Sequence record: PZ386973.1
Length of the DNA stretch: 64,000 nucleotides
Direction: 5' to 3' (one strand)
Origin: a phage
The first letter of the stretch is position 1, and every line of letters begins with the position of its first letter. This document shows positions 2,847-33,690 of this stretch, piece by piece. The notes under the pieces are model-generated. The model was given only the letters and a program-made list of their open reading frames with translations, searched no databases and was not told where the DNA came from. The position numbers and the translations under genes were made by a program.

Positions 2847-3353
2847 TTACACCTTAAATTGTTGTAAGGATTTACACATTTCAAGATCCGGGCTAAATTC
2901 TAGCATATAGCTAACAGCTTTTAAATCTTGAAGATTTATCCCAGTCCTACCGTTGACTATAACTGTTGGATACTGATACATCATAGCACCAGCATCATCA
3001 AGCACACACCAATGTTTGAGCTTATGCTTTTCAACGAAGCGAAGAACAGAATTACCCCTAGATAATCCACCACCAGTAAAATCCGTTGTACCAAGAAAAC
3101 GATCGATAAGACCTAATCCGGTCATAATTCGAACGTTCTCCATTTCATTTTTAACAGAAAACCACGAAGATACCCCAACAATCATTATTGAAGAGGGACG
3201 AATAAAATCCTGAAAAGCCTTGAGAAGTGGCTTAAAAACCCAATCACTTCCGAAGAAGATCTTTTCATCATCCGGCGCATGGTGGTGCGAGATGCTCGAA
3301 TTGAGCACCCCATCAATATCTAGAAAAATAACTGGAGTATTACTTATTTCCAT
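2847..3353 (-). CDS. HAD-superfamily phosphatase-like protein
   Basis: N-terminal FLDIDGVL (DxDG motif I). Confidence 0.55.
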   Translation of the reverse strand: MEISNTPVIFLDIDGVLNSSISHHHAPDDEKIFFGSDWVFKPLLKAFQDFIRPSSIMIVGVSSWFSVKNEMENVRIMTGLGLIDRFLGTTDFTGGGLSRGNSVLRFVEKHKLKHWCVLDDAGAMMYQYPTVIVNGRTGINLQDLKAVSYMLEFSPDLEMCKSLQQFKV

Positions 3354-3522
3354 TTTTGTTCCTTTCTAAGAACGTATCATACTCAACCGTATCAACATAT
3401 ATGACACCATAGTCATCGGATTTATAGTCCATTTCCCACAGCTCACAGCGATAACACCAACTACCATCCGCCCATACAAATATATCATCGGGATGTGTAT
3501 ATACAGATTTAACTATAGACAT
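3340..3522 (-). CDS. hypothetical small protein
   Basis: Track ORF, overlaps its neighbours in operon fashion. Confidence 0.35.
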   Translation of the reverse strand: MSIVKSVYTHPDDIFVWADGSWCYRCELWEMDYKSDDYGVIYVDTVEYDTFLERNKNGNK

Positions 3523-4337
3523 ATTTGTTTCCCTGGCATATAAGGTCTACCCTCTAAATGAGCTTCCACACGAGCAATAAAATCAGGATCACTGAAAGCA
3601 TCTACCGCACCTTTACTCCAGTAAGGGACCCCACGTTCTTCCAGCTGGTACATCTCACTACGAGTCATACCTTGATAGCCGGGCTCCGCTGCTAGAGCAC
3701 TATCATAGTAGTTAACAACCATAAGTTTCGCAGCAGTCAAATTAAGAACAGGAAATAATTCCCAGTAGAAGTTAATTACTTGGTTAGAGCAACCAACTAC
3801 AATAATCATATCTTGACTGGTAATACTGTCAAAAACATTATACATTTCTGCGTATGCAGGAGCATGCTCTCCAAAGAAGATTACATTAGGTTTAGCCCAT
3901 TTATAATCATCCGGATCGATAGAACTGTATCCTACATCAATAATCCGTTTATTGCTACTATTGTATCTATCAGCTACAACAACCTCTTTTAAATATCCGT
4001 GAATGTGCAGAATGTCACTATGTGGAACGCCAGCACGCTCAATAAGGTCATCAACGTTGGTAGTCAAGTTTACTACTTGACCAGGGTATTGTTTATGCCA
4101 TTCACCAATACGCAAATGCGCAAGATTGGGTTCGACAGTTTTTAGCTCTTCACGACGCTTGTTATAAAACATATGGGTTTTATGGTAAAAATTACCACGA
4201 AAGGCATGAATATTACATACTTCTTCTAGATCATAATCATCCCACAATGCTTTACCACTAGCAGTATCAGTACGAAAAGCTCGTACACCACTTTCAACGC
4301 TCAAACCTGCACCGCTAATAATAATTACTCTACGCAT
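3513..4337 (-). CDS. Sir2-like NAD-binding protein
   Basis: GAGLSVESGVRAFR (sirtuin GAGIS..SG motif), TTNVDDL (TQNID-like), HIHG catalytic His; no Zn-ribbon cysteines seen. Confidence 0.6.
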   Translation of the reverse strand: MRRVIIISGAGLSVESGVRAFRTDTASGKALWDDYDLEEVCNIHAFRGNFYHKTHMFYNKRREELKTVEPNLAHLRIGEWHKQYPGQVVNLTTNVDDLIERAGVPHSDILHIHGYLKEVVVADRYNSSNKRIIDVGYSSIDPDDYKWAKPNVIFFGEHAPAYAEMYNVFDSITSQDMIIVVGCSNQVINFYWELFPVLNLTAAKLMVVNYYDSALAAEPGYQGMTRSEMYQLEERGVPYWSKGAVDAFSDPDFIARVEAHLEGRPYMPGKQICL

Positions 4338-5014: not shown

Positions 5015-5113
5015 AGCTTTCTCCTCTCAAATTTATAAATCTATTATATATAAATTTTTGGCTGAAAGCAAATAAAATAAAAGCCAGGTCGACTAGCAAC
5101 CCGGCTGATTAGC

Positions 5114-6991
5114 TTATTTAGCTCGAATATCCTGATGTTTCACTCTGCCCATCACCTCGTGCTGTTTGCCGGGGTTAAATGGACGAGCACCTGGATTTCC
5201 AAGATACCCACAAACTCGACGAGTTACTTCAAGAGTTTCGGGGTCATGATTACCACAGATAGGGCACTTAAATCCATCTTCGGATGCTATTGTTTCACCT
5301 AAGAATCCACATTTACCACAAGAATCCACTGGAGTATTAATACCGAAGTAATGAACCTTACTAGCAGCATAATTAATAACCCATTCCAGTGCATCTGGGA
5401 ATCGTTTCATATCCGGTAGTTCCACATAGGAAATGCATCCACCAGAAGCAATCGGCGTAAAATTAGATTCATAGTCGAACTTCACGTTTGGAGCAACCTT
5501 ACGCTCCACATCTAGGTGGTGCGAGTTAGTGTAGTAACCTTTACTAAGAATATCTTCATGCTCCGGGAAATATTCACGATCTAAACGGCAGAAACGATCA
5601 CATAAGGATTCAGATGGTGTAGCATACAGACTATAGCCTAACTGAGTCTCTTCCTTCTTCTGATCCACTCTATCCCGCATATATTGTAGAACACGTTGTA
5701 CAAACTTAATACAGGTCTCGGACATTGTATCTACATCTTTGCCAAACATAAATTGTAGCATCTCATGGCAACCAATATATCCCAGAGATACAGAAGCACG
5801 GTTATAGAAATGATCAAATACATATTCATCAGGCCCCAAGCGTAGTCCAAAGGCTCCTGACATATAGAGGATGGGTGCGGCTTTAGCTTGAATGTATTTT
5901 AAGCGATCAACTCTCCACTCCAGTGCTTTAAGCGCGGTATCCACACGTAGCTCAAGCAAATCAAAGAATAGATCAATGTTCCCTTCAGCTTCGATAGCAA
6001 TTCTAGGCAAGTTTACAGAAACAACACCTAAGTTATTACGACCGGCAGTTTCTCCATCTTCTGCAGCAGCTAGGAACGAACGGCAGCCCATAGAAACTTT
6101 ATAGTCACCAGTAACTTCCACAACCTTATCATAGCTGATGTAATCAGGATACATACGTTCAGCAGTACATTTCATAGCTAACTTCTTGATGTCATAATTA
6201 ACATCCCCTGGTTTCATATTTACGCCATCACGAAGTACAAATACCAGTTTCGGGAAGATAGCTGTACGTTTATTGATACCTAAACCATCCATGCGTACTT
6301 TCAGTATTGCTTTCTGTACTAGACGTGCTTCCCAAGAAGTTCCTAGACCAAAACCAAAGGTAATAAATGGACTCTGACCATTAGAGTTGAACATGGTATT
6401 GATTTCATATTCTAAACCCTGACAAGCGTCATAGACTTCTTTTTCAGTCATCTCCGTAGCCATTACGGATGCTTTAGCTTCATCCTTAGTCCAACGTTTT
6501 GCAAACGCATGATTTTTGTCATAGGATTTACGAACATAAGGGGCTAATACTTCATCAAGGCGATCTACAGAAGTACCACCATACTGATGGGAGCTAACCT
6601 GAGTAATAATTTGAGCAGTAATAGCCGCCGCAGTAGTGATAGAGTTTGGAGTGCTAATTTCAGCATTACCAACTTTCATACCATTCTTCAACATATCTTC
6701 CAGAGCTACCAGACAACAGTTAGTCATGCCTAATGCAGCATAATCAGCATCATGGAAATGAATATCCCCAATCATATGAGCATTTCGAATCTGAATTGGC
6801 ATTTCTTCTAGAATTAGATACTTACTCAATTCACCTGCAAGCATATCCCTTTGTGTAGGGAAACGTTCTGAGGGTTTATTGGCATTATTAAATAGCAGTT
6901 CTTCATCTGCTGACCCTTCGATAATCTCTTTGCAGTTTCTAATTAACGCCTGCATTTCTTTATATTTTAGTTCTTCATTACGATTCATCAC
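5114..6991 (-). CDS. nrdD: anaerobic ribonucleoside-triphosphate reductase (class III)
   Basis: 625 aa; C-terminal glycyl-radical motif RRVCGYLG preceded by CGKCGF...CPICG zinc ribbon. Confidence 0.88.
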   Translation of the reverse strand: MMNRNEELKYKEMQALIRNCKEIIEGSADEELLFNNANKPSERFPTQRDMLAGELSKYLILEEMPIQIRNAHMIGDIHFHDADYAALGMTNCCLVALEDMLKNGMKVGNAEISTPNSITTAAAITAQIITQVSSHQYGGTSVDRLDEVLAPYVRKSYDKNHAFAKRWTKDEAKASVMATEMTEKEVYDACQGLEYEINTMFNSNGQSPFITFGFGLGTSWEARLVQKAILKVRMDGLGINKRTAIFPKLVFVLRDGVNMKPGDVNYDIKKLAMKCTAERMYPDYISYDKVVEVTGDYKVSMGCRSFLAAAEDGETAGRNNLGVVSVNLPRIAIEAEGNIDLFFDLLELRVDTALKALEWRVDRLKYIQAKAAPILYMSGAFGLRLGPDEYVFDHFYNRASVSLGYIGCHEMLQFMFGKDVDTMSETCIKFVQRVLQYMRDRVDQKKEETQLGYSLYATPSESLCDRFCRLDREYFPEHEDILSKGYYTNSHHLDVERKVAPNVKFDYESNFTPIASGGCISYVELPDMKRFPDALEWVINYAASKVHYFGINTPVDSCGKCGFLGETIASEDGFKCPICGNHDPETLEVTRRVCGYLGNPGARPFNPGKQHEVMGRVKHQDIRAK

Positions 6992-7097
6992 ACCCTCCTT
7001 CTCTAACTAAGACTACTATTATAACTCATTCGAGGGCGGATGTCAACAATATTTTACTATAAAGTTCTGTAACATGATCTGAGTCAAAAAATTTTAT

Positions 7098-8316: not shown

Positions 8317-8458
8317 GCTAAAAAGCTAGACTGACAACACAGAAGGCCTGGGTATGAAAATACTCGGGCCTTTTCTATCAGAAAATTTTATTTGCCTAAT
8401 GACCGATAATAAAGTAGAATATTTCCTAAATCCTGATAACTATAAAAAGGAAAACCAA

Positions 8459-10789
8459 ATGAGCCATCGTATTGAAAAAGTAATTAAACGTGACGGTACT
8501 GTAGAAGACTTTGCTCCTGAAAAAATCAATGGTTGGGCAGAGTATGGTTGCAAAACAGTTGATGTAAGTTGGTCAGCCATTACTATGGCTGCTCAAAAAA
8601 CTCTGCCTAAAGGGGTTGTAGATTCCGACACTCTGATGGACGCATTAATTAAAGCTGCTGAAAGTCTTATCAAAGATAACCCAGCATACGACGTGCCGGC
8701 AAAGGAATTACGTCTTGCGCAAATGCGTAAACGCCTCTATGATTCCTTCGAACCGCCTTCTCTGCGCTTCTTCCATGACCATATGGTTAGCGTAGGTGCA
8801 TGGGAAGACATGAGTGCATGGATTACCGATGAGCAATTTGAAGCTCTGAATCAGGTTATCGACCATGATCGTGATCGTCTTTTTACTAGTGGTGGACTGA
8901 AGCAGTTCTTTGATAAGTATTCCCGTCGTAATATAGCCACTGGTGAAATTTATGAAACCCCGCAATTTGCCTACATGGGTATGGCAATGGCGATGCTATC
9001 TCAACCTAACTGGACAATTCTAGATGCAATCGACCTCTACAACGCAATGTCGCTCCACAAAATCAACGTTCCTACGCCGCCACTGGTTGGTCTGCGCTCT
9101 AGTGACCGCGGATTTGCTAGTTGCTGCCTCGTGGATTCCACTGACACATTGGATTCAATCGACACCGCCGAGCACATCGTCTTCAAAATGGTCGCAGCCA
9201 GAGCGGGAATCGGGTATCATCTTGAAAGCCGATCAATTGCTGATCCGGTGCGAAATGGGGCATTCCCGCATTCCGGAAAACTGCCATATTATCGACACAT
9301 TGATCGATCAGTAAAAGCGAACACTCAGCAAACCCGTGGTGGTTCTGCTACTGTATCTTACCCGTACTTCGATCCTGAAATCATTCAGTTGATGCAGGTT
9401 AAGCAACAACGTGCTACAGACGAGAATAAAATCGACAAGATGGATTATTCTCTGAGCTTCAATAATCTTTTGTTAAAACGTTATCTGAAAAACGAAGATA
9501 TTACGCTAATGTCGTACTTCTATGCCCCAGAAGTTCATGAAGCGTTTTATAGTGATGACGAGGCTAAATTTGAAGAAATCTATGTGGCAGCGGAGAAACG
9601 TGTGGCATCTCTTACAAAGATCGACCACGAAGGAAAAACAGTTCCAGCAGCTCCTAAAGTCTCTGCAAAAGAAATCCTAGATACCTGGCTGCGTATCCGA
9701 ATGGAAACAGGACGTATGTATGCTCATCACATTGGGGAATCTAATCGTCATGGTAACTTCCTTGATCCGATCCGTATGACAAACCTTTGTGTTGAAATTA
9801 CTCAGCCTACACGCCCGTTCCACCATATCACAGAACTGTATAAGACAAAAGAGCAGCTTGATCAAATGAAGCCAGAGGATATTGGTGAAGTATCTCTGTG
9901 TAACTTAGGCGGTGTTGTACTTGGACGCATGGAATCTCTGGCTGAGTGGGAAAAGACTTGCTATATTCTTCTGAAATTCGTTGATACCATCATTGAAATT
10001 CAGGATTATCCATTCCCAACTATGGAATATACGGCTAAGAAACGTCGTAACGTTGGTATTGGTCTGATGAACGCAGCAGGTGCAATGGCAGCGGAAGGTT
10101 TGGCTTATGAAGGCGTTGAAGCGCGTAACTGGATTCATCGTGAAGCTGAAAAACTGTCCTACTTCCTGCATAAAGCCTCTGTACGCCTAGCCAAAGAGCA
10201 AGGTGCATGTGAATGGTTTGACCGTACTAAACCGTCTAAAGGAATACTGGTAATCGACACGTACAAGAAAACTGTTGATGAACTGGTATCAGTAGGTCTA
10301 GAAATGGATTGGGAATCTCTACGTGCAGATATTCTGAAATATGGTATGCGTAACTCTGTTCTGACTGCTCAGATGCCTGGAGAAAGTTCTTCTGTACTGT
10401 TGGGTGTTACTAACTCTATCGAACCGCCTCGTAAGATTGTATCTATCAAGGGTAGTGCGGTGAATAAAGTAATTGCAATTGCTCCAGGTGCAACCGATTG
10501 GGAAACGTTAATGAGCTATAAACTGGCTTATGATGTAGATCGTATCGAGTGGATCAAATGGGTAGCAACTATGCAGAAATTCTTCAGTCAGTCTATCAGT
10601 ACGAATATGTACTATGACTACACCAAGTTTGAGAATGAAATCATTCCTGGCCCAGTAGTAGTTCGTGATTTCATGACTGCTGTTAAGTATGGGTGGAAAA
10701 CTTGGTATTATGCTAACTTCAACACTGCAAATGGTGGAGGTGCTGGAGAAGAAGCAGCCGGTTGTGCATCCGGTGGTTGTACTATTTAA
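8459..10789 (+). CDS. nrdA: ribonucleotide reductase large subunit (class Ia)
   Basis: ATP-cone-like N-terminus (VIKRDGTVEDF), CNLG active-site region, C-terminal Cys pair; ATG 8459 with AAGGA upstream. Confidence 0.88.
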   Translation: MSHRIEKVIKRDGTVEDFAPEKINGWAEYGCKTVDVSWSAITMAAQKTLPKGVVDSDTLMDALIKAAESLIKDNPAYDVPAKELRLAQMRKRLYDSFEPPSLRFFHDHMVSVGAWEDMSAWITDEQFEALNQVIDHDRDRLFTSGGLKQFFDKYSRRNIATGEIYETPQFAYMGMAMAMLSQPNWTILDAIDLYNAMSLHKINVPTPPLVGLRSSDRGFASCCLVDSTDTLDSIDTAEHIVFKMVAARAGIGYHLESRSIADPVRNGAFPHSGKLPYYRHIDRSVKANTQQTRGGSATVSYPYFDPEIIQLMQVKQQRATDENKIDKMDYSLSFNNLLLKRYLKNEDITLMSYFYAPEVHEAFYSDDEAKFEEIYVAAEKRVASLTKIDHEGKTVPAAPKVSAKEILDTWLRIRMETGRMYAHHIGESNRHGNFLDPIRMTNLCVEITQPTRPFHHITELYKTKEQLDQMKPEDIGEVSLCNLGGVVLGRMESLAEWEKTCYILLKFVDTIIEIQDYPFPTMEYTAKKRRNVGIGLMNAAGAMAAEGLAYEGVEARNWIHREAEKLSYFLHKASVRLAKEQGACEWFDRTKPSKGILVIDTYKKTVDELVSVGLEMDWESLRADILKYGMRNSVLTAQMPGESSSVLLGVTNSIEPPRKIVSIKGSAVNKVIAIAPGATDWETLMSYKLAYDVDRIEWIKWVATMQKFFSQSISTNMYYDYTKFENEIIPGPVVVRDFMTAVKYGWKTWYYANFNTANGGGAGEEAAGCASGGCTI

Positions 10790-10796
10790 TAAAAAC

Positions 10797-10826
10797 AAGG
10801 AGATCTTCGGGTCTCCTTTTTCTTTG
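10797..10826 (+). terminator. rho-independent terminator
   Basis: Hairpin AGGAGATCTTCGGGTCTCCT followed by a T-run. Confidence 0.6.
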
Positions 10827-10835
10827 AAATTTTAC

Positions 10836-10864
10836 TTGCTAATCTCTACCAGATTTGCTATAAT
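10836..10864 (+). promoter_or_regulatory. early promoter module (TTGCTA-N17-TATAAT)
   Basis: Member of the repeated promoter family upstream of nrdB. Confidence 0.55.
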
Positions 10865-10895
10865 ATTCCTGAAATAGTGAGAAAGAGGAAAATCA

Positions 10896-12041
10896 ATGAC
10901 TACTTTACTAAACCTGAATTGGGACCATACTAACGCTGACCTTTTCCTGGGAGATTCTCTCGGTGTCGCAGATTATGTACGCGTAGCACATCCAGAACTA
11001 GAACGTCTGGCACTTCTGCAACGCTCTCAATTTTGGACTGAAACTGAAATCAGTCTGGAAGCAGATAAGAAACAATGGCCTAATCTCCCACGTGAAATTC
11101 AGGAAATTACACTCCTGAACTTAGCATGGCAGACTCAAACTGATTCCTTTATCAGTCGTGCCCCTGAAGCAGCTATTATGCCGCTTGTAAGTCGTCCAGA
11201 ATTGGAAGGAATGTTAAAGCAGTGGAGCTACTTCGAAGACCTGCATAGTCGTGCTTATAGTAATATTATTCGTAATGTGTTGACTGACCCAGCAGAATTT
11301 ATTGATTCTGTAACTAAAAACCAAGAAGCATTCGCACGAATCGCTGATTCTGTTGAACTATTCGATGAACTGTACCAGTTAGGTCAGTATTTCATTGCAG
11401 TACGCGATCATCGTGGCGACAATACTTATCCAGAAACTGAGTTCCCTGAAGTTAAACGTGAAACTCAGGCTAAACTATTAGACGCTTACTTTGCTATCTA
11501 TGGTCTGGAAGCAATGCAGTTTTACGCATCATTTGCATGTACCTTTGCATTAGCAGAGAACGATATTCTGCAAGGTATTGCTAAAAATCTGCAATTAATC
11601 GCTAAAGATGAAGCTCTGCACACTCAGATGTCCAAAGCAATCATCCAGATTATGTTCCAGCAGTTTGACAAAGACCTGGTGGATGAAGCAGTGGCTAAAG
11701 CACCAGCACAGCTCCTGAAAACTCTGAAAACTGAAATTGAATGGGGTCATTTCATTTTCAAAGGTCGTAGTCTGATTGGCTTGAATGCAGAACTTCTAGA
11801 AGAATATCTGTACTTTGTGGGGCGTAATGCATTTATGCACATCGGTGTAGAATGGCCTAGTCACTTACCAGTAATCACCAAAAACCCTATTCCGTGGATC
11901 ATGAACTGGTTGGATACTACTTCTCTACAGCCTGCTCCGCAAGAAATCCAGATTGGTGCAGCTTACCGTGTAGGTCAGGTAACTGAGACCTCTACGGATA
12001 CCCTGAAAGATCTGGGTAATGAATTTGGAGATTTCTTATGA
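10896..12041 (+). CDS. nrdB: ribonucleotide reductase small subunit
   Basis: Ferritin-like di-iron protein (EALH motifs); immediately follows nrdA. Confidence 0.85.
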   Translation: MTTLLNLNWDHTNADLFLGDSLGVADYVRVAHPELERLALLQRSQFWTETEISLEADKKQWPNLPREIQEITLLNLAWQTQTDSFISRAPEAAIMPLVSRPELEGMLKQWSYFEDLHSRAYSNIIRNVLTDPAEFIDSVTKNQEAFARIADSVELFDELYQLGQYFIAVRDHRGDNTYPETEFPEVKRETQAKLLDAYFAIYGLEAMQFYASFACTFALAENDILQGIAKNLQLIAKDEALHTQMSKAIIQIMFQQFDKDLVDEAVAKAPAQLLKTLKTEIEWGHFIFKGRSLIGLNAELLEEYLYFVGRNAFMHIGVEWPSHLPVITKNPIPWIMNWLDTTSLQPAPQEIQIGAAYRVGQVTETSTDTLKDLGNEFGDFL

Positions 12042-12571
12042 TTACAGCAATGTATGCAGTTGGGCCGAATGGGGAGTTCGGCCTCCGCGGTAAACTTCCA
12101 TGGGGTTCTTTCAAAGAAGAACTAGATGCTTTCTATTCTCAACTGGACGTGTTGAATCCAGATAACATCATTATTGGTGCGGGTACTTATTTAGCTCTTC
12201 CATACGCCGTTAGGGAACGTATGATTGGAGCCTCCGACCTATTTATTCGTGCAGATCGTCCACTGCCAGACGATATTACACATGATATTTACACCCCAAT
12301 TTCTAGGATTGGGGATACATTGCCCACGTTCTTAAAAGATCAGCAAACAGTAGTTCTAGGCGGAGCTAATCTTCTTTTGGAAATGTACCAGCACGGGCAC
12401 ATAGAAAGTGCTTTTGTATCTACAATCTTTAGCGAACAGAAGCTAGAGGCAGATATACACCTAGATAGCACAATCCTGGATTATAATTATGAATCCACTA
12501 GATTAGTTTATGCAGTTGGCGCTAACAGTGATAACAGCCTGCGATTTGTACAGGAATTGGTTACTTATTAA
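12038..12571 (+). CDS. folA: dihydrofolate reductase
   Basis: N-terminal AVGPNGEFG...LPW pattern; overlaps nrdB stop and thyA start (ATGA). Confidence 0.75.
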   Translation: MITAMYAVGPNGEFGLRGKLPWGSFKEELDAFYSQLDVLNPDNIIIGAGTYLALPYAVRERMIGASDLFIRADRPLPDDITHDIYTPISRIGDTLPTFLKDQQTVVLGGANLLLEMYQHGHIESAFVSTIFSEQKLEADIHLDSTILDYNYESTRLVYAVGANSDNSLRFVQELVTY

Positions 12572-13410
12572 TGCAACAATACTTAAAAATTCTAACAGAT
12601 GTAATTTTATTGGGTGAACCACGTAACGATCGTACGGGAACAGGCACAGTTTCAATTTTCGATTCCTATGCTAAGTTCGACCTACGTGAAGGATTCCCTG
12701 CCGTAACCACTAAACGTCTAGCTTGGAAATCGGTAGTTGGGGAACTCTTATGGTTTTTATCTGGATCTACAAATCTTCATGATCTACGTGTATTCACATT
12801 TGGTCGTGACGAAGGACAGTGGACCATCTGGACTCCAAATTATGAAGACCAAGCTATAAGTATGGGGTATGATAAGGGTAATCTAGGACCAGTATATGGT
12901 AAACAGTGGCGTAACTTTGGTGGACGAGATCAGATTCTAGAACTTATTGAGGGACTCAAGAATAATCCTCATGGCCGCAGACATCTAGTTTCTGCATGGA
13001 ATGTTGCTGAACTTGATAAAATGGCATTACCACCCTGTCACTACGGCTTCCAGTGCTATGTAAGTAACGATGGATACCTAGATCTTAAATGGACACAACG
13101 TTCTGTAGATTGTTTCCTCGGTTTACCTTTCAATATTGCTAGTTATGCTTTATTAACGCATATAATAGCAAAACTGACAGGATTAAAACCTCGTTATCTT
13201 ATCTTTAGTGGCGGTGATACTCATATCTATAATGACCACATGGAACAGGTAGAAGAACAGGTAAAACGTAAACCTCGTCCTTTACCGACTCTAGTAATGC
13301 CAGAATTTGTAGATCTTTACGACTTACTAGAAAATAATACGGCAGCTTGGTCATTCCATTTAGAGGGGTACGATCCTCACCCAGCTCTTAAAGCTAAGAT
13401 GTCTTCTTAA
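12571..13410 (+). CDS. thyA: thymidylate synthase
   Basis: RTGTGT, LPPCH active-site Cys, DxHIY motifs. Confidence 0.9.
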   Translation: MQQYLKILTDVILLGEPRNDRTGTGTVSIFDSYAKFDLREGFPAVTTKRLAWKSVVGELLWFLSGSTNLHDLRVFTFGRDEGQWTIWTPNYEDQAISMGYDKGNLGPVYGKQWRNFGGRDQILELIEGLKNNPHGRRHLVSAWNVAELDKMALPPCHYGFQCYVSNDGYLDLKWTQRSVDCFLGLPFNIASYALLTHIIAKLTGLKPRYLIFSGGDTHIYNDHMEQVEEQVKRKPRPLPTLVMPEFVDLYDLLENNTAAWSFHLEGYDPHPALKAKMSS

Positions 13411-13415
13411 CTCAA

Positions 13416-13440
13416 ATAGCCCTTCGGGGCTATTATATCT
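13416..13440 (+). terminator. terminator hairpin
   Basis: ATAGCCCTTCGGGGCTAT with TTCG tetraloop, then a U-rich stretch. Confidence 0.5.
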
Positions 13441-13449
13441 AAATTTCAT

Positions 13450-13478
13450 TTGCTTACTGAGTGAAATTTAGATATAAT
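13450..13478 (+). promoter_or_regulatory. early promoter module
   Basis: TTGCTT-N17-TATAAT followed by TTTATAAATCGGAGA. Confidence 0.5.
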
Positions 13479-13502
13479 ATATTTTATAAATCGGAGACAA
13501 CT

Positions 13503-13757
13503 ATGGGACTCTTTAAAAAGAAAGTTTATTTAACACAAAGTCAAGAACGTAGGTTCTTAGCTCTGTCTCAGTATTATCACTTACCTTTCGATCATTTTGT
13601 AGAACGGGCGTTAGAACAATTCCTAGAAAAGGAATTAAAGGCAATTAGACCTGAACCGCCAAGAGTACCAAATGATGCACAGAGAGGTCATCCATGTATT
13701 CCTCCTATGCCGCCAATTCCTCCAGCGACTAGGGTAATTATAGAAGGCGAAAACTAA
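13503..13757 (+). CDS. hypothetical protein (Pro-rich C-terminus)
   Basis: ATG 13503 after GGAGA; the track start 13461 lies inside the promoter. Confidence 0.45.
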   Translation: MGLFKKKVYLTQSQERRFLALSQYYHLPFDHFVERALEQFLEKELKAIRPEPPRVPNDAQRGHPCIPPMPPIPPATRVIIEGEN

Positions 13758-14026
13758 TGTCTATTCTTTTATCTGCTTTAGAAGCAAAACAAAATACTAT
13801 TGCTGTTATTAAACAGGAAGTACTTAATCTAGAGTCACTTATTGCCGTAGAGATTGATAAAGCAATCAAAGAAAAAGAATTTAACTGCCATATTCAGGGA
13901 TTAACTGAATATTCAGAAAACGCCAGAAACAGCGTTATGCAACGACTCACTAAACTAGGCTATGTCGTAGAAGCTAAGTATGAGCAGCGTGAAGGTTTTT
14001 GGCTTGAAATTGACTGGAGCAAATAA
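13757..14026 (+). CDS. hypothetical protein
   Basis: Track ORF, ATGA overlap. Confidence 0.45.
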   Translation: MSILLSALEAKQNTIAVIKQEVLNLESLIAVEIDKAIKEKEFNCHIQGLTEYSENARNSVMQRLTKLGYVVEAKYEQREGFWLEIDWSK

Positions 14027-18574: not shown

Positions 18575-19396
18575 ATGGGTAAATTACAAAAACAAATACT
18601 ACCATATATAGATTATATTCGAGAAATTATAGAGTATAATCCTTATACCGGTAAATTATTTTATAAGCCTAATAAATACAAGAATAAAACTTGGCACACC
18701 CTATATGCTGGGAGAGAAATATGTAGTAAGAACTCTGATGGGTACATCAGGGTTAGTTTGCTATTAGATAATAAACCCACAATTATTTATGGACACCGAA
18801 TAGCGTGGTTGCTCCATTATGGTGAAGAGCCGCCTTATATGATCGACCATATAAATACCATACCGTGGGATAACAGAATTATTAATCTAAGAGAGACAAA
18901 TTTTAAGTTAAATAGGATTAATACTAGTAAAACCGTAGGTGTAGAACTCCTCCCCGAGGGTTTTGTGTATAGCATTACATTAGGTGGAAAGTTTTTCGTA
19001 TCTCCTGGCTTCACCACTTTCGAACAAGCTAAAGTAGAAAGAGAAAAACTAGTAAATGGTTTATGTAATGCAGAAATTGGGAAGCAGACCAATATTCTAA
19101 TAGACGATGTTAGAGATTTACCTGAAATGTCCATTATTTGTCGTACAGTTATAGGTGCGCTGGAACTATCAGATGTGTTTAGTTTTACAGGATCCTATTT
19201 ATTTATGGACTCAGATTTAGGAGATCCAGAGGTACAAGGAAAAGATTTATTAGATCATATACTATCATTAGGTCAAAGACCCCTAAAAGTGATTCTAGTA
19301 ACATCTAATCCTGTTGACGCAGAGTACATGAGAGGTACTCTTACGTCTTATGGATACCGAGAAAATCCCAATAGATTAGAATATGATCTATTTTAA
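18575..19396 (+). CDS. HNH homing-endonuclease-like protein with C-terminal extension
   Basis: GHRIAWLLHYG...IDHIN...NLRETN HNH-type motif in the N-terminal half. Confidence 0.65.
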   Translation: MGKLQKQILPYIDYIREIIEYNPYTGKLFYKPNKYKNKTWHTLYAGREICSKNSDGYIRVSLLLDNKPTIIYGHRIAWLLHYGEEPPYMIDHINTIPWDNRIINLRETNFKLNRINTSKTVGVELLPEGFVYSITLGGKFFVSPGFTTFEQAKVEREKLVNGLCNAEIGKQTNILIDDVRDLPEMSIICRTVIGALELSDVFSFTGSYLFMDSDLGDPEVQGKDLLDHILSLGQRPLKVILVTSNPVDAEYMRGTLTSYGYRENPNRLEYDLF

Positions 19397-21380: not shown

Positions 21381-21452
21381 CGGGGTGTAGTCTAAGGGAG
21401 AGGCAGGAGTCTTCTAAATTCCTTTATGCAGGTTCGAATCCTGTCACCTCGG
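21381..21452 (+). tRNA. tRNA-Arg (anticodon TCT)
   Basis: 7-bp acceptor, T-arm GCAGG-TTCGAAT-CCTGT, anticodon loop CTTCTAA, encoded CCA. Confidence 0.7.
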
Positions 21453-21489
21453 CCAATTTTATTAACTGTAACTAAAACAAAGGAAATAT

Positions 21490-22437
21490 ATGTTTGCTAC
21501 TAAAAATATGAAAGAACTGACTTCTGAGCAGAAAGTAATTCGTACTATTAAACGTTGGGGTATTGGTGCTGTAGTTGGTTTAGCAGGTTTAATCCTAGCT
21601 TTTAATTCATATACTATTGTTTCTGATGGTACGGTTAAAACCCAAACATTCCTGGGTAAAGTAGACCCTAATCCAGTATTGCCAGGTTTCCATCTTGTAA
21701 ACCCGTTTGCATCTTTCGATACTTTTAGTACAAAAGATATTGCTGTAAAATTAGATAAACTTCAGGTTCCTAGTCAGGATAAGTTTAAATCCACTGTTGA
21801 CCTGACTGTTATGTTGCAGTTTGATGGTTCTAAGGCACCTATTAACCGTATTAATGCGGGTACTCAGGATCAGGCACTAGACAAGTATGTAACTGAAAAA
21901 TTACTATCTACTATTCGTGAGTTTGGTAAGTCTGTACCTAAAGCACAAGATTTGTTTGATGCTAAAATTCAGGCTCAATTGCAAACTGCAATTCAACAGG
22001 AAGTTGAAGAGTATGCACGCCCATATGGTTACACAGTTAAGCAGGTGTTCCTTCAGGATATTACTTTGCCACCGGTAATCATGGAACAGGTACAGAATAC
22101 CAAAGTTCGTGAAGAGCAAGTTAATGCTGCGAAAGCTGAACTGGCTCGTGTTGAACAGGAAGCACAGCAAAAAGTTAAACAAGCAGAAGCAGATCGTGAA
22201 GCTCGCAACAACCAAGCTATTGCTAATGAACGTGACGCAGATGCTAAACTGTACGCAGCTAAGAAAGAAGCTGAAGCTAACGCCGCATTGCAACGTACCA
22301 TTACTCCTGAGATGATTCGCTGGAAGCAACTGGAAGTTGAAATGATTCGTGCTCAGAAATACCAAGGTGGTGTACCACAGACGGTAGTTGGTACTGGTTA
22401 TGATGGCCAGATGATTATGGATATGCGTAACAAGTAA
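21490..22437 (+). CDS. SPFH/band-7 (prohibitin-like) membrane protein
   Basis: N-terminal TM helix, central SPFH-like region, Ala/Glu/Gln-rich coiled coil. Confidence 0.65.
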   Translation: MFATKNMKELTSEQKVIRTIKRWGIGAVVGLAGLILAFNSYTIVSDGTVKTQTFLGKVDPNPVLPGFHLVNPFASFDTFSTKDIAVKLDKLQVPSQDKFKSTVDLTVMLQFDGSKAPINRINAGTQDQALDKYVTEKLLSTIREFGKSVPKAQDLFDAKIQAQLQTAIQQEVEEYARPYGYTVKQVFLQDITLPPVIMEQVQNTKVREEQVNAAKAELARVEQEAQQKVKQAEADREARNNQAIANERDADAKLYAAKKEAEANAALQRTITPEMIRWKQLEVEMIRAQKYQGGVPQTVVGTGYDGQMIMDMRNK

Positions 22438-22514
22438 TAGTTACACGTAATCTTCGAACCAAGCCTGCGTTTCCCTCGAGAGCGCGGGCTTTTCTGTATT
22501 TAAGGCAAAAGAAA

Positions 22515-22549
22515 AAGCCCCTTACCTTTCGGCAGGGGCTTTTGTTTTT
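22515..22549. terminator. bidirectional terminator
   Basis: GCCCCTTACCTTTCGGCAGGGGC flanked by A-run and T-run between convergent genes. Confidence 0.6.
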
Positions 22550-22756
22550 GGTTTAGAACCACACTCTCGGTATACAGCAACCACCCATACGGGAGGCCAA
22601 TCTTGACTGAAAATCTACTCTAGGGGGCAGGATAAGAGTAGGCTTAAAGGCAAACGGATTGAACGCCGGTATTTGCGTAAACATTGCTGGAGAGCAACAA
22701 CGTGCTACAGGCATTGGGCAGCACGAAACAGATTTTCTGCAACACATAATTCCTCC

Positions 22757-23173
22757 TTAGGAGTTATTACCGCTATTTTGAGCTTTTGCAATTTGGCTTT
22801 GGCAGAAGCTATTAAACTTACCCATAAGTGATACAAGCTGCCTCCCATCCTCTGTCTTTGCGAAGTCTTCGAAAAGGGCTAGTACTGCCTGTCCTTCCGC
22901 AGAAACCTGCGGTTGTTGGGTTTGCTGCTGAACTTGCTGCTGAGGCACCTGTTGCTGCATTTGTTGAGGCATTTGCGACTGCCCGCTCATTTGCTGCATC
23001 ATTTGCATAGGACTTACACTTCCAGGGTTTTGCTGGAGTTGTTGCTGCATCTGTTGCGCTTCTGCTAAACGCTGTTGCAATTGTTGTAAGTAGGGGTTAT
23101 CCAGACCCGGAATGGGCTGCTGGGAGCCCATACTTTGATTAAGTCCGTTATTTACAAAACCATATTTACTCAT
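22757..23173 (-). CDS. Gln-rich low-complexity protein
   Basis: Track ORF; GGGGAGGAG RBS; QQLQQ repeats. Confidence 0.5.
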   Translation of the reverse strand: MSKYGFVNNGLNQSMGSQQPIPGLDNPYLQQLQQRLAEAQQMQQQLQQNPGSVSPMQMMQQMSGQSQMPQQMQQQVPQQQVQQQTQQPQVSAEGQAVLALFEDFAKTEDGRQLVSLMGKFNSFCQSQIAKAQNSGNNS

Positions 23174-23194
23174 AATGGGCTCCTCCCCTTAATA

Positions 23195-24181
23195 TTAAGC
23201 CGGCAGTTTAGCCTGCAGACCAGCCAGAGTCTGAGTGATCGCACCAAGACTTACAGCGATTTGATTAATTACCTGACCATTAGCACCGTTACCCGCAGCG
23301 ATTGCCTCACGTAGGCGACATGCATCTAACTCATCCTGAATACGCGCAGTAGTTACACCAGCGATCGCAGTCTGAAGTTCACAGCAACATTCAGAGATCT
23401 GACGTTCCAGAGAATTCTGGTTAGCACACATCTGAGCCTGAACAGCGGCAAACTGGTTATTAGTTTGTAAAGTCTGCTGGAAAGCGATCTGTGCAGAATC
23501 AAACTTATCTTGTGCACGAGCTATCTGGTTAGCTGCGAAAGATTGATCAATCTGGCGAGAAAGATCGAACTGACCCTGAATAACGTTGCGAGTTTCCTGG
23601 CAGATCTGATTAGACAGATTAGCACCTGTACCATAGATCGTAGTTAGTACAGACTGAGTATCACGGCTCTGGTTTTGGGATGTCTGGCTAAAACCATTGT
23701 TAACTGCGCTTAAAACAGCTCCAGTACCCTGGTTAGCTTCTGTACGAGTAGTGTTAATAGCTGCTAGAATACTAGCGGTATCTTGGTTCTGAAGTACTGC
23801 ATCAACTGCGGTACCATCACCAACTACACCACGTCCACCGAATCCACCGAAACCACCGAATCCGCCTGTTAATAGAGCACCGATTAGGATAGCTCCGAAT
23901 AGTCCCATACCTTCACCACCGAAAGCACCTGCGTTTGCTGGGTAACCACCCAGTAGGCCAGGGAGGCCACTAGTAAATACGTTTACTGGTTCTTGCATTT
24001 TATGTTTTCCATATTTATGACAATGTTCATCATCGTCATCTTCTTCATCATCGTGTTCACGATGCTTTTCTTCGTAGGCTCTGACCTTCTCCCACTTTTT
24101 CTTATCTGATTCCTCGTGACGGTGCAGTTCTGCTGCAACGCTAGCGACGGTCTCAGGACTCTTAGCTACTTCTTCTGTCAT
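23195..24181 (-). CDS. acidic, Gly-zipper membrane protein, Q/N/S/T-rich
   Basis: ATG at 24181 after AGGAGG; DDEEDDDDEH stretch; GLFGAILIGALLTGGFGGFGGFGG segment. Confidence 0.5.
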   Translation of the reverse strand: MTEEVAKSPETVASVAAELHRHEESDKKKWEKVRAYEEKHREHDDEEDDDDEHCHKYGKHKMQEPVNVFTSGLPGLLGGYPANAGAFGGEGMGLFGAILIGALLTGGFGGFGGFGGRGVVGDGTAVDAVLQNQDTASILAAINTTRTEANQGTGAVLSAVNNGFSQTSQNQSRDTQSVLTTIYGTGANLSNQICQETRNVIQGQFDLSRQIDQSFAANQIARAQDKFDSAQIAFQQTLQTNNQFAAVQAQMCANQNSLERQISECCCELQTAIAGVTTARIQDELDACRLREAIAAGNGANGQVINQIAVSLGAITQTLAGLQAKLPA

Positions 24182-24243
24182 TTTTTGACACCTCCTAGTA
24201 TATAGAAAATGTGTGTCTCTTTGATCACTCATCCATAACATAT

Positions 24244-24272
24244 ACTTTACACTACCCCAGCGAAAATGTCAA
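24244..24272 (-). promoter_or_regulatory. minus-strand promoter (TTGACA-N17-TAAAGT)
   Basis: Different hexamer type from the plus-strand early promoter family. Confidence 0.4.
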
Positions 24273-24388
24273 GGGGTCTTTAAAAATTGCCCCCGGATTT
24301 TTAGTGGGGTCACAAATTTTGGTCCTCACCACTTATATGCTACCCTTAAGTGCCCTATGATTTTCCTCTAAAAAGTTAAAAAATTTGA

Positions 24389-24417
24389 TTGCTTGAATGC
24401 TAAATTCTCTGTATAAT
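24389..24417 (+). promoter_or_regulatory. early promoter module
   Basis: TTGCTT-N17-TATAAT. Confidence 0.55.
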
Positions 24418-24447
24418 GTATCTATAAATTTGAGAGAGGAACCAAAT

Positions 24448-24966
24448 ATGAATGTTGACGAGCTAACACAGCACCTCTTATCTAGAGGATTTGATACAGA
24501 TAAATATCATTGCTGGTTAAGTCCGGAAGGATGGCTAACAGTCCCGTTGTATGATTTCTCTGGGATGTTGAGGGGCTATCAGACGTATAATCCTTCTGCT
24601 CCAAAAGGTCATGGTAAGTGCCCCTTTGAGGCTAAATATTTTACCTGCTCTACTACACAGTGTGTATGGGGGCTAGAAACTCTCAATGGAGATGAAAAAG
24701 TAGTATTGATCGCTGAATCTGTATTTAAGGCAGTTGCGTTACACAACGCTGGTTATCCAGCCCTGGCAATGTTGGGTTCTTCTCCAGGAAAAGCGTTATT
24801 AAAGCAACTGAAATTATTACCTTTTAAATTGGTAGCTGTCGGAGATAATGATCCTGCGGGTGAAAAATTTGCTAGAAAATTAAACGGCTTTGTTTCTCCC
24901 GTAGATGTGGATGAGATGTCTACCGAAAACTTGAAAAATTTTCTTGCTATGAAGCTAAATTTCTAA
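24448..24966 (+). CDS. Toprim-domain protein
   Basis: LIAESVFKAVAL...VAVGDNDPAGEKFA (E plus DxD Toprim signature); ATG 24448 after the promoter module. Confidence 0.5.
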   Translation: MNVDELTQHLLSRGFDTDKYHCWLSPEGWLTVPLYDFSGMLRGYQTYNPSAPKGHGKCPFEAKYFTCSTTQCVWGLETLNGDEKVVLIAESVFKAVALHNAGYPALAMLGSSPGKALLKQLKLLPFKLVAVGDNDPAGEKFARKLNGFVSPVDVDEMSTENLKNFLAMKLNF

Positions 24967-24972
24967 TATAAT
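24944..24972 (+). promoter_or_regulatory. early promoter overlapping the 3' end of the Toprim gene
   Basis: TTGCTA-N17-TATAAT; -35 lies inside the coding sequence; drives the tRNAs at 24988. Confidence 0.45.
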
Positions 24973-24987
24973 ATATCTTATAAATTC

Positions 24988-25078
24988 GGAAGATTAACCC
25001 TAAAGGTAAGGGAGCTGTTTGCTAAACAGCCAGTAACTGTGGAAACATGGTGTGCCAGTTCGAGTCTGGCATCTTCCT
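24988..25078 (+). tRNA. tRNA-Ser (anticodon GCT)
   Basis: Acceptor GGAAGAT/ATCTTCC, anticodon loop TTGCTAA, long variable arm, T-arm GCCAG-TTCGAGT-CTGGC. Confidence 0.7.
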
Positions 25079-25087
25079 CCAGATTTT

Positions 25088-25162
25088 GGTTCTCAAGCTC
25101 ATATGGTATGAGCACCCGGCTCATAACCGGAAGGTACGTAGGTTCGAATCCTCGGGGAGCCA
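25088..25162 (+). tRNA. tRNA with CAT anticodon (Met or Ile2)
   Basis: Acceptor GGTTCTC/GGGAGCC with G-U pairs, D-stem GCTC/GAGC, loop CTCATAA; T-stem pairing weak. Confidence 0.55.
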
Positions 25163-25383
25163 CCAACTTAATTAGGGGATTACAAGTGGAATTATACATA
25201 GTTTATGTTGTGTTTATTCAAGATAGAGAATACCCGGATGAATATAAAAAAGGATATAGGTTAGCCAGAGCTACCTCTGAGGCCCAAGCTATGGATAAAG
25301 TGGCAGATTATATGATTATGGTAGAAAACGTATACTATATCGACTCCCTTGAAGCCTCAAAAGTAATTGACTAAGGAGACTAT

Positions 25384-25569
25384 ATGTCTAAGTTTCAAGA
25401 ACTCAAGCAAGAGCTAGAAGAATGTGCCTGCCCTGAATGTAGGGGGATTGGTGAAAGTTCTGATGCAGAAGCAGGAGATACTTTTTGCAATATCTGGATT
25501 TGTTCAAATTGCAACGGTACAGGTATTAATCCTAACTGCGGTATTTCCCTAGATATTGAACGAGGATAA
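25384..25569 (+). CDS. small Cys-rich (zinc-ribbon-like) protein
   Basis: CACPEC...CSNCNG. Confidence 0.4.
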   Translation: MSKFQELKQELEECACPECRGIGESSDAEAGDTFCNIWICSNCNGTGINPNCGISLDIERG

Positions 25570-25671
25570 TACCTGTGAAACTAAAAGATTATTATATTGG
25601 TTGGTTTGTGGGACTAGTAGTAGGATTTTCACTAGGCTATAATATGTATCAACTAATAAACTGATTACATG

Positions 25672-25745
25672 GGGGGTGTAATCGAATTGGCATAGGTACT
25701 GGACTTAAAATTCAGGTTTTGTGGGTTCGAATCCCACCACCCCTA
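25672..25745 (+). tRNA. tRNA, anticodon read as TAA (Leu-type) on a class I body
   Basis: Acceptor GGGGGTG/CACCCCT, T-arm GTGGG-TTCGAAT-CCCAC, loop CTTAAAA, A73, short variable loop. Confidence 0.55.
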
Positions 25746-25763
25746 CCAAATTAAGGAATTAAG

Positions 25764-25931
25764 ATGTATAGACCTCCTCCGCCACCAACACGTCGTTCTA
25801 GGGAAGTCATCCTTATGGAATTGACGAAAAACTTCAAGGCGACTCTTGAGGATAGAGACTTAGGCACAGATGAAGACGTTGATTTCATTTGTAAACTATT
25901 AAAAATGAAACTGGAGAAACAACATGGCTAA
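25764..25931 (+). CDS. hypothetical small protein
   Basis: ATG after AAGGA; 55 codons. Confidence 0.4.
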   Translation: MYRPPPPPTRRSREVILMELTKNFKATLEDRDLGTDEDVDFICKLLKMKLEKQHG

Positions 25932-26130
25932 TCCTGAAATTACCATGCAACGACTCATGACTAAAGGCATGATAGCCGAGGCAGGTATTGAACAAGAAGT
26001 AAAAGGCTATTACGAACAGATTAAGACTATTATAGACTCTGCTAAAAACACCGGAGAAAAAGAACACGGTGCAGCAATTATGGCTATAACTCTTATTAGT
26101 CTAGACTTGGCCGAAGAATCTGGAGTTTAG
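25924..26130 (+). CDS. hypothetical protein
   Basis: Track ORF. Confidence 0.45.
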   Translation: MANPEITMQRLMTKGMIAEAGIEQEVKGYYEQIKTIIDSAKNTGEKEHGAAIMAITLISLDLAEESGV

Positions 26131-26160
26131 CTCCTCCAAACAGAATTTTTAAAAATGTAC

Positions 26161-26190
26161 TTGCTTTTTGTCTTAAATTTCTGATATAAT
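26161..26190 (+). promoter_or_regulatory. early promoter module
   Basis: TTGCTT-N18-TATAAT. Confidence 0.5.
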
Positions 26191-26220
26191 AGTCATATAA
26201 ATTGATGAAGGAGTTAACTA

Positions 26221-26496
26221 ATGCAAAATCGTGTTGTAGCAACTGGTATTGAAAGTGCAATCTGTAAATCCTGGGAAGGCTGGGAAGGTGAGATTGAATG
26301 GCTTTATTTCTACGATGTAGAACTCCTGCCGGAAGTTAAAGCTAAATGCGTTGAAGCTGGTATGGCTCCAGATGCAAAAGCTGATATTGATATTTCAATG
26401 TCTGAACTTAAAGGTCGTGTAGTTACCGTTAGTAATGAGGGGGAAGAAGTTTTTGAACTTCCGTTCTCCTTAGCTGTCACTCCTAAGTTCGACTAA
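26221..26496 (+). CDS. hypothetical protein
   Basis: Track ORF. Confidence 0.45.
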   Translation: MQNRVVATGIESAICKSWEGWEGEIEWLYFYDVELLPEVKAKCVEAGMAPDAKADIDISMSELKGRVVTVSNEGEEVFELPFSLAVTPKFD

Positions 26497-26709: not shown

Positions 26710-26720
26710 CCAAATTTAAT

Positions 26721-32934: not shown

Positions 32935-33303
32935 ATGAAAGCATATCAAAATCTTAAATCTGGCGTAATTAACCTTGTTCATGAAAATCAGATTATTCAG
33001 CTATACTCCGACAACGGTGAACTTAAACAGAAAGTTCTAGTTGAAGATCTAGAAGGTATCACCCCACAATTCGATCCTGAAGCCTTCCGTGAAGTCAAAG
33101 TGGAAGTCGCCCCTCAAATCGAAGGTGGTCAGCACCTAAATGTCAATGTGTTAAGCCGTGATCAGCTTTTGGATGCGCAGAAACATCCTGAAAAATATCC
33201 TCAGTTGACCATCCGTGTCTCTGGCTACGCTGTTCGATTTAACGCACTGACTCGTGAACAACAGAACGACGTTATTAGTCGTACATTTACTCAGGCGATG
33301 TAA
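32935..33303 (+). CDS. grcA: autonomous glycyl-radical cofactor (GrcA/YfiD-like)
   Basis: C-terminal [27 protein letters not shown] matches the glycyl-radical signature RVSGYAV. Confidence 0.7.
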
Positions 33304-33384: not shown

Positions 33385-33690
33385 GTGGATCGAGCATTAA
33401 GACGCCATCACCGGCAACGTGTGAAGAACAACCGTAAGAAGTATTGGACAGTCTTTCCACATGAAGAAAGCCCTAAGCGGTTAGGTATTATCACTACTAC
33501 TCCTTGCATCTGTTCTTGTTGGATGTGTGGGAACCCTCGCAAATATTATAAGAATAGTAAAGCAGGTATGAAAACCTCGGAGATCAGGAAAATGGAAGCG
33601 ATGATTGCGGACATCACCTATACTGGTGGTATTTCAAATGATGAATTTGATGGCTTCGTAGCGTTCGAAGATGAACGCCCCGATCTGTAA
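33385..33690 (+). CDS. hypothetical basic, Cys-containing protein
   Basis: Track ORF. Confidence 0.45.
   Translation: MDRALRRHHRQRVKNNRKKYWTVFPHEESPKRLGIITTTPCICSCWMCGNPRKYYKNSKAGMKTSEIRKMEAMIADITYTGGISNDEFDGFVAFEDERPDL

What the first reader, a model, noticed from the sequence alone, without database searches (positions are those of the whole stretch)
5114..6991. NrdD without a recognisable NrdG activase nearby
The class III reductase is clear, but none of the neighbouring small ORFs shows the CxxxCxxC radical-SAM motif of NrdG. The phage may rely on the host activase, or the gene lies outside this window.
Basis: seen in the sequence. Interest (0 to 1): 0.35.

Follow-up and report, generated by a model that had tools for sequence, protein, structure and literature searches.

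The report
T5-like phage nrdD lacking own activase
This T5-like phage carries an intact anaerobic ribonucleotide reductase gene (nrdD) but no gene for the enzyme that switches it on, so it almost certainly borrows the host bacterium's NrdG; this pattern has already been reported for T5 and its relatives.

Summary
Window 5114-6991 (-) encodes a complete class III ribonucleotide reductase (NrdD). It matches Pfam NRDD (4e-172) and Gly_radical, and the NCBIfam NrdD equivalog at 843 bits. It keeps the glycyl-radical loop RVCGYLG, the four zinc-site cysteines and the active-site cysteines. It lacks the N-terminal ATP-cone. It looks monocistronic, with its own consensus promoter and a terminator-like hairpin.

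No NrdG is present. tblastn, an 11-sequence NrdG HMM run on six-frame translations, and a CxxxCxxC scan found nothing. That covers the window, the complete genome of Salmonella phage SCF, and the parts of the closest relative (BUCT632) that lie outside the window.

The only real ORF with CxxxCxxC (33385-33690, 101 aa, T5.055 family) is not a radical-SAM protein. Its first cysteine is not conserved, and all 95 homologues are 55-124 aa with no Pfam domain.

nrdD is under strong purifying selection (dN/dS 0.017). Its Gly loop is identical to that of E. coli NrdD, and nrdG is present in 5426 of 5426 complete E. coli genomes. Activation by host NrdG is therefore the best explanation.

Dwivedi et al. 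2013 already reported that many phages carry nrdD without nrdG, and described the T5/EPS7/SPC35 RNR region. Verdict: real, ordinary, already known.

The parts
7018..7046 (-). Promoter-like site for nrdD: TTGACA (7046-7041), 17 nt spacer, TATAAT (7023-7018), a 12/12 match to the sigma-70 consensus
   Evidence: scan; sequence. This is a consensus match only; strong sigma-70 promoters are typical of T5 early genes (my own knowledge).
6994..6999 (-). Shine-Dalgarno AGGAGG, 5 nt upstream of the ATG at 6988
   Evidence: read directly from the sequence
5114..6988 (-). nrdD, class III (anaerobic) ribonucleoside-triphosphate reductase, 624 aa from the ATG (the mechanical ORF starts at GTG 6991). No ATP-cone. 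Gly loop RVCGYLG, zinc-ribbon CxxC...CxxC and both active-site Cys are conserved.
   Evidence: dN/dS 0.017 against the phage SCF orthologue
5082..5106 (-). Terminator-like hairpin (10 pairs, 6 G-C) followed by a T run, 8 nt after the nrdD stop. With the promoter it makes nrdD look monocistronic, with no co-transcribed partner gene.
32935..33303 (+). Context: a second glycyl-radical protein that also lacks an activase gene. It is a 122-aa GrcA/YfiD-like autonomous glycyl radical cofactor with the loop RVSGYAV.
   Evidence: Pfam Gly_radical 3.7e-18; phrog_1209; relatives annotate it as 'autonomous glycyl radical cofactor' or 'pyruvate formate-lyase'
33385..33690 (+). Examined and excluded as an activase: a 101-aa basic, Cys-rich protein of the T5.055/ORF053 family (phrog_4499). 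It is the only real ORF in the window with CxxxCxxC.
   Evidence: The invariant motif is TP-x-x-C-S-C-x-M-C-x-x-P. The first Cys of the CX3CX2C is replaced by N or A in homologues. All homologues are 55-124 aa with no Pfam domain. NrdG HMM E=16.

Best explanation
The window comes from a T5-like phage (Demerecviridae, Markadamsvirinae). Its nrdD encodes a functional glycyl-radical ribonucleotide reductase, expressed from its own promoter as a single-gene unit. The phage has no activase. The glycyl radical on the Gly of the RVCGYLG loop is installed by the host's radical-SAM activase NrdG, using the host's SAM and reducing system. NrdG is part of the core genome of E. coli, and is already present in cells growing anaerobically, which is the only condition under which the oxygen-sensitive NrdD is useful. 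Aerobically the phage uses its own NrdAB (8354-12041). What is shown here: the identity and intactness of NrdD, the absence of any NrdG or radical-SAM gene, selection on nrdD, a Gly loop identical to the host's, and universal host nrdG. What is inferred: that host NrdG actually activates the phage enzyme.
For: NrdD identity and key residues. No activase: tblastn with three NrdG queries (best E 0.13); an 11-sequence NrdG HMM run with --max on all six-frame segments of at least 30 aa of the window plus complete phage SCF (best E 0.38; controls 2e-70) and of the BUCT632 regions outside the window (best E 2); CX3CX2C scans. Purifying selection: 90 nucleotide but only 3 amino-acid differences from the SCF orthologue, dN/dS 0.017; 386 phage records have NrdD at 95% or higher amino-acid identity. 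Compatibility with the host activase: the Gly loop RVCGYLG is identical to E. coli, and the 31-residue tail is 81% identical against 55% overall. T4, which carries its own nrdG next to nrdD, has RTCGYLG and 58%. The literature links activase specificity to Gly-loop sequence, and reports that PFL-AE does not accept the RVCGYLG peptide (PMC13450708, section 2.5). nrdG is in 5426 of 5426 complete E. coli genomes. [quoted passage not shown]
Against: There is no experimental evidence here or in the searched literature that E. coli or Salmonella NrdG activates a T5-type NrdD (searches found none). Outside the Gly tail, the C-terminal zinc domain thought to contact NrdG (PMC4493059) is only about 55% identical to E. 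coli, no more host-like than the rest of the protein. Tail conservation does not discriminate: Vibrio phage Achelous has its own NrdG yet a tail 77% identical to E. coli. T5 degrades host DNA early in infection (my own knowledge), so only pre-existing NrdG protein would be available. The genome outside the window was examined in relatives, not in this phage itself.
Confidence: 0.82

Rival explanations
1. An nrdG gene exists in this phage but lies outside the 64-kb window.
For: The window covers only about 59% of a T5-like genome. Vibrio-infecting Demerecviridae carry nrdG about 3 kb from nrdD.
Against: The missing 44 kb in phage SCF, and the corresponding parts of the closest relative BUCT632, hold only structural and replication genes, with no NrdG HMM hit or CX3CX2C ORF. 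None of the 60 best matches to the Demerecviridae-type NrdG, down to 63% identity, is an Escherichia or Salmonella T5-like phage. The NrdD and NrdG record counts differ by about the number of T5-like records.
Confidence: 0.02
2. The phage NrdD is a non-functional relic, or has a non-catalytic role, and is never activated.
For: It has no cognate activase and no ATP-cone.
Against: dN/dS is 0.017. All catalytic, zinc-site and radical residues are intact. The gene has its own consensus promoter, a strong RBS and a terminator. It is kept at full length in hundreds of genomes and in distant genera such as Stubb and Sugarland. T4 NrdD also lacks an ATP-cone (my own knowledge).
Confidence: 0.04
3. A non-canonical phage-encoded activase or adaptor does the job. 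Candidates are the Cys-rich 101-aa protein at 33385-33690 and one of the conserved small ORFs downstream of nrdD.
For: The 101-aa ORF has a CX3CX2C, sits directly after the GrcA-like gene, and gives weak NCBIfam radical-SAM hits (E 0.012 and 0.087). The small ORFs downstream of nrdD are conserved PHROG families of unknown function.
Against: The first Cys of the motif and the 'TGG' stretch are not conserved in homologues. All 95 homologues are 55-124 aa with no Pfam domain, which is shorter than the ~154-197 aa NrdG sequences used here. The family also occurs in Erwinia, Rhizobium and Serratia phages. NrdG HMM E=16. The ORFs downstream of nrdD have 0-2 Cys and lie beyond the terminator-like hairpin that follows nrdD.
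Confidence: 0.03
4. A different host glycyl-radical activase (PflA or a paralogue), rather than NrdG, activates the phage NrdD.
For: E. coli encodes several such activases (my own knowledge). The phage also carries a PFL-type client, the GrcA-like ORF.
Against: The phage loop is the RNR-type RVCGYLG. PFL-AE is reported not to act on that peptide (PMC13450708).
Confidence: 0.05

Closest known systems
NrdD of bacteriophage T5 and relatives (EPS7, SPC35; 'Enterobacteria phage cluster 4' of Dwivedi et al. 2013, PMC3653736)
   Same: Same gene in the same context: nrdD divergent from phoH-nrdA-nrdB-frd-thyA, with no nrdG. Identity to many T5-like records is 95-99.5% at the amino-acid level.
   Different: Nothing of substance; allelic differences only.
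Bacteriophage T4 NrdD/NrdG
   Same: A phage class III RNR without an ATP-cone, with the same zinc ribbon and glycyl-radical domain. About 49% identity.
   Different: T4 carries its own nrdG next to nrdD. Its Gly loop is RTCGYLG, and its tail is only 58% identical to E. coli, against 81% for the window protein.
E. coli NrdD-NrdG (host system)
   Same: 54% identity over 599 residues, above the NCBIfam equivalog cut-off. Identical Gly loop, and the MGCRSF active-site motif typical of formate-dependent NrdD (my own knowledge).
   Different: The host enzyme has about 85 extra N-terminal residues (the ATP-cone) and is encoded in an operon with nrdG.
NrdD-NrdG of Vibrio-infecting Demerecviridae (Thalassavirus, pVp-1, phi 3)
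   Same: Same virus family, with a class III RNR near the replication-origin-binding protein gene.
   Different: These phages encode NrdG (208 bits in Achelous; 67 records at 60% identity or more). Achelous NrdD is 724 aa and closer to E. coli NrdD (64%) than to the window protein (53%), which suggests a separate acquisition.

Membership tests
Class III ribonucleotide reductase, NrdD | Profile match above the curated threshold (Pfam PF13597, NCBIfam NF006732 and TIGR02487) | tested here: met
   574 bits (cut-off 26), 843 bits (cut-off 657), 587 bits (cut-off 326)
Class III ribonucleotide reductase, NrdD | C-terminal glycyl-radical loop RVCGYLG with the radical Gly (E. coli G681) | tested here: met
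   Pfam Gly_radical 8.6e-23
Class III ribonucleotide reductase, NrdD | Four-Cys zinc site (E. coli C644, C647, C662, C665) and active-site Cys (C175, C384) | tested here: met
   all conserved in the alignment with E. coli
Class III ribonucleotide reductase, NrdD | Cognate radical-SAM activase NrdG encoded in the same genome | tested here: not met
   no hit in the window or in complete relatives. This defines the two-gene system, not the NrdD protein family.
Class III ribonucleotide reductase, NrdD | N-terminal ATP-cone (present in E. coli NrdD; not universal) | tested here: not met
   the alignment starts at model position 86 of 712; no Pfam ATP-cone hit
Class III ribonucleotide reductase, NrdD | Anaerobic NTP reductase activity and a glycyl radical | not testable with these tools
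   Needs EPR and an enzyme assay
NrdG / glycyl-radical-enzyme activase (radical SAM), tested on the 101-aa ORF 33385-33690 | Conserved CX3CX2C cluster motif | tested here: not met
   C41 is replaced by N or A in homologues; the invariant cysteines are C43, C45 and C48 (CxCxxC)
NrdG / glycyl-radical-enzyme activase (radical SAM), tested on the 101-aa ORF 33385-33690 | Profile similarity to NrdG or radical SAM, and a core of about 150 aa or more | tested here: not met
   NrdG HMM E=16; no Pfam hit at E up to 1; homologues are 55-124 aa; only weak NCBIfam hits at E 0.012 and 0.087, far below cut-offs
[quoted passage not shown] | A small protein made essentially of a PFL-type C-terminal glycyl-radical domain with the loop RVSGYAV | tested here: met
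   (Gly_radical 3.7e-18, residues 62-103 of 122); sequence; loop identity with PFL per PMC13450708

The most novel reading that the evidence does not exclude
Activating the T5-type NrdD (and the GrcA-like protein) requires more than the host activases. On this reading, a phage-encoded helper among the conserved small proteins of unknown function adapts host NrdG or PflA to the phage clients. Candidates are the 93-aa phrog_7953 ORF directly downstream of nrdD and the Cys-rich T5.055-family protein directly downstream of the grcA-like gene. The evidence here does not exclude this, but nothing positively supports it.
Probability: 0.04. Interest if true: 0.6.

Novelty: already known. Interest (0 to 1): 0.12.

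Why it matters
If host NrdG is the activator, it becomes an anaerobiosis-specific host dependency factor for the many T5-like phages of E. coli and Salmonella. That is relevant to how these phages replicate in the gut and to their use in therapy. The phenomenon itself, nrdD without nrdG, has been in the literature since at least 2013, and nothing here needs a new mechanism. The main value of this check is to close the question for this window and to dismiss the one CxxxCxxC ORF.

Tried and rejected
1. tblastn with E. coli, T4 and Aeromonas-phage NrdG against the window and complete phage SCF gave only noise (best E 0.13).
2. A custom 11-sequence NrdG HMM on six-frame translations found nothing; the controls worked.
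3. The 101-aa CxxxCxxC ORF next to the GrcA-like gene looked intriguing, with weak radical-SAM hits and a TGG stretch about 33 residues after the motif. It was rejected after the homologue search and alignment.
4. I tested whether the phage NrdD's C-terminal domain mimics the host's as evidence for host activation. Only the 31-residue Gly tail is more conserved than the protein as a whole. A phage with its own NrdG (Achelous) shows the same tail conservation, so the argument is weak.
5. Literature searches for an explicit statement or experiment on T5 NrdD activation by host NrdG found nothing. The T4 genome review (PMC150520) is not held.
6. A full Pfam scan of every window ORF was considered and not run. 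All known glycyl-radical activases have CX3CX2C (my own knowledge), and the exhaustive six-frame motif scan had already excluded that motif.

Full report
**What the window is.** A 4-kb stretch around the finding matches 460 phage records by megablast. Nearly all are T5-like phages of Salmonella and Escherichia, at 90-99% identity. The closest relatives are classified as Demerecviridae, Markadamsvirinae, Tequintavirus. The window aligns colinearly with positions 44,218-108,556 of the 108,556-bp genome of Salmonella phage SCF. It therefore covers about 59% of a T5-like genome: the early and nucleotide-metabolism region, a 22-gene tRNA cluster, and the pre-early region.

**Checking the observation.**
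- It is an NrdD: Pfam NRDD 4.1e-172 and Gly_radical 8.6e-23; NCBIfam equivalog NF006732 at 843 bits (cut-off 657), aligned to model positions 86-706 of 712. The E. coli-type ATP-cone is therefore missing.
- It is 54% identical to E. coli NrdD over 599 residues.
- In an alignment with E. coli, T4 and three other Demerecviridae NrdDs, the radical Gly (E. coli G681), the four zinc-site Cys and both active-site Cys are all conserved.
- The likely start is the ATG at 6988. The AGGAGG at 6999-6994 is 5 nt from it and only 2 nt from the GTG at 6991.
- A perfect TTGACA-17-TATAAT lies at 7046-7018, and a terminator-like hairpin at 5106-5082. The gene therefore looks monocistronic, with no co-transcribed partner.
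- The neighbouring small ORFs (93, 67, 73, 60 and 55 aa) belong to PHROG families of unknown function or to none. They have no radical-SAM similarity and no CxxxCxxC.

**Is there an activase anywhere?**
- I took authentic NrdG sequences from annotated records: E. coli K-12, T4, an Aeromonas phage and eight other phages.
- tblastn with three of them against the window and the complete SCF genome gave only noise (best E 0.13).
- An HMM built from all eleven was run with filters off against every six-frame stop-to-stop segment of at least 30 aa in the window and SCF (2590 segments). The best hit was E 0.38 at 7 bits, while the T4 and Aeromonas-phage controls scored 229 bits.
- The same search on the parts of BUCT632 outside the window gave a best E of 2. 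BUCT632 is the closest relative, with NrdD 99.5% identical.
- A six-frame scan for CxxxCxxC found one real ORF only, at 33385-33690. The other matches are short or antisense frames.

Record counts agree with this.

| Phage group | Records with NrdD | Records with NrdG | T5-like records |
|---|---|---|---|
| All phages | 2909 | 2273 | 460 |
| Salmonella phages | 397 | 126 | 273 |
| Escherichia phages | 1055 | 928 | 132 |

In each row the NrdD-NrdG gap is roughly the number of T5-like records.

**The one CxxxCxxC ORF.**
- The 101-aa ORF sits directly after a GrcA-like glycyl-radical gene. It gave weak NCBIfam hits to two radical-SAM families (E 0.012 and 0.087), so I looked further.
- It belongs to phrog_4499 (9e-40) and is the T5.055/ORF053 protein.
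- All 95 homologues in a search of 5.8 billion proteins are 55-124 aa with no Pfam domain.
- In the alignment the invariant residues are T39, P40, C43, S44, C45, M47, C48 and P51. The first Cys of the apparent CX3CX2C (C41) is N or A in some members. The 'TYTGG' stretch that resembled a GGE motif is an insertion absent from most homologues.
- The family also occurs in Erwinia, Rhizobium and Serratia phages.
- It is a small, basic, Cys-rich protein of unknown function, not an activase.

**How it most likely works.**
- nrdD is clearly maintained by selection. Against the SCF orthologue it has 90 nucleotide differences but only 3 amino-acid differences, giving dN/dS 0.017.
- Full-length orthologues exist in distant genera, including Proteus phage Stubb (72%) and Klebsiella phage Sugarland (62%). 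Neither has nrdG within 5 kb of nrdD.
- A functional glycyl-radical enzyme needs an activase.
- A 2026 review states that activase specificity tracks the Gly-loop sequence, that reported cross-activation is between homologues with conserved loops, and that PFL-AE does not accept the RNR loop peptide RVCGYLG (PMC13450708, section 2.5).
- The window NrdD has exactly RVCGYLG, as does E. coli NrdD. Its 31-residue tail is 81% identical to E. coli, against 55% for the whole protein. T4, which carries its own nrdG, has RTCGYLG and 58%.
- nrdG is present in 5426 of 5426 complete E. coli genomes.
- The best explanation is therefore activation by host NrdG (confidence about 0.8).

Three caveats apply:
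- The zinc domain thought to contact NrdG (PMC4493059) is no more host-like than the rest of the protein.
- Tail conservation is also seen in a phage that has its own NrdG (Achelous, 77%).
- No experiment was found in the literature.

**Comparison with what is known.** Dwivedi et al. [quoted passage not shown] The finding is therefore a re-observation of a published pattern.

One comparative detail I did not see stated there concerns the Vibrio-infecting branch of the same family (Thalassavirus, pVp-1, phi 3 and others).
- These phages do encode NrdG: 67 records at 60% identity or more to Achelous gp74. Achelous gp74 scores 208 bits against the NrdG HMM but is annotated as hypothetical in GenBank.
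- None of the 60 best matches is an enterobacterial T5-like phage.
- Achelous NrdD is 724 aa, and is closer to E. coli NrdD (64% over the C-terminal 430 residues) than to the window protein (53%).
- The two subfamilies may therefore have acquired class III RNR separately, rather than the T5 branch having lost nrdG.

**Verdict.** The pattern is ordinary and already known.

Noticed in passing
window 32935-33303 (+): A 122-aa GrcA/YfiD-like autonomous glycyl radical cofactor (Pfam Gly_radical 3.7e-18) whose Gly loop RVSGYAV is identical to the PFL loop. No PflA-like activase is present either, so the phage carries two glycyl-radical proteins that must both use host activases. Class III RNR of the E. 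coli type uses formate made by PFL (my own knowledge), so the two genes could be functionally linked.
   Followed up: partly
window 33385-33690 (+): T5.055/ORF053-family protein (phrog_4499), 101 aa, with an N-terminal RRHHRQR basic stretch and the invariant motif TP-x-x-CSC-x-MC-x-x-P. It is also found in Erwinia, Rhizobium and Serratia phages. Function unknown; probably metal-binding.
   Followed up: yes
L017:9777-10259 (Vibrio phage Achelous MK796244, gp74): Annotated 'hypothetical protein' in GenBank but a clear NrdG (208 bits against my NrdG HMM). The NrdD of the same phage (gp70, 724 aa) is also annotated as hypothetical. Many sister Vibrio phage records have the same gap in annotation.
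   Followed up: partly
window 12582-14022, 18578-19359, 47058-47556, 50930-51514, 53841-54289: These stretches have no blastn match in the otherwise colinear Salmonella phage SCF. The first covers the thymidylate synthase gene (12571-13410), so this phage appears to carry a divergent thyA allele. This looks like mosaic replacement.
   Followed up: no
window 21381-32911 (+): A cluster of 22 tRNA genes, all on the + strand, ending directly upstream of the GrcA-like gene. This is typical of T5-like phages.
   Followed up: no
window 2847-4337 (-): Downstream of nrdD lie a Sir2-family protein (3513-4337, Pfam SIR2 3.5e-24) and a HAD_SAK_2 'Swiss Army Knife RNA repair' HAD-domain protein (2847-3353, 2.2e-20). 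In phage SCF the HAD ORF is annotated as a second 'Sir2' gene, which looks like a mis-annotation.
   Followed up: no
Salmonella phage phC11 OQ680480.1 30613-32421 (hit H139): A 107-kb Salmonella phage that also carries the T5.055-family protein (80% identity). Its NrdD is only 60% identical to the window's, similar to the Klebsiella phage Sugarland allele. This suggests allelic exchange of nrdD between Demerecviridae genera.
   Followed up: no
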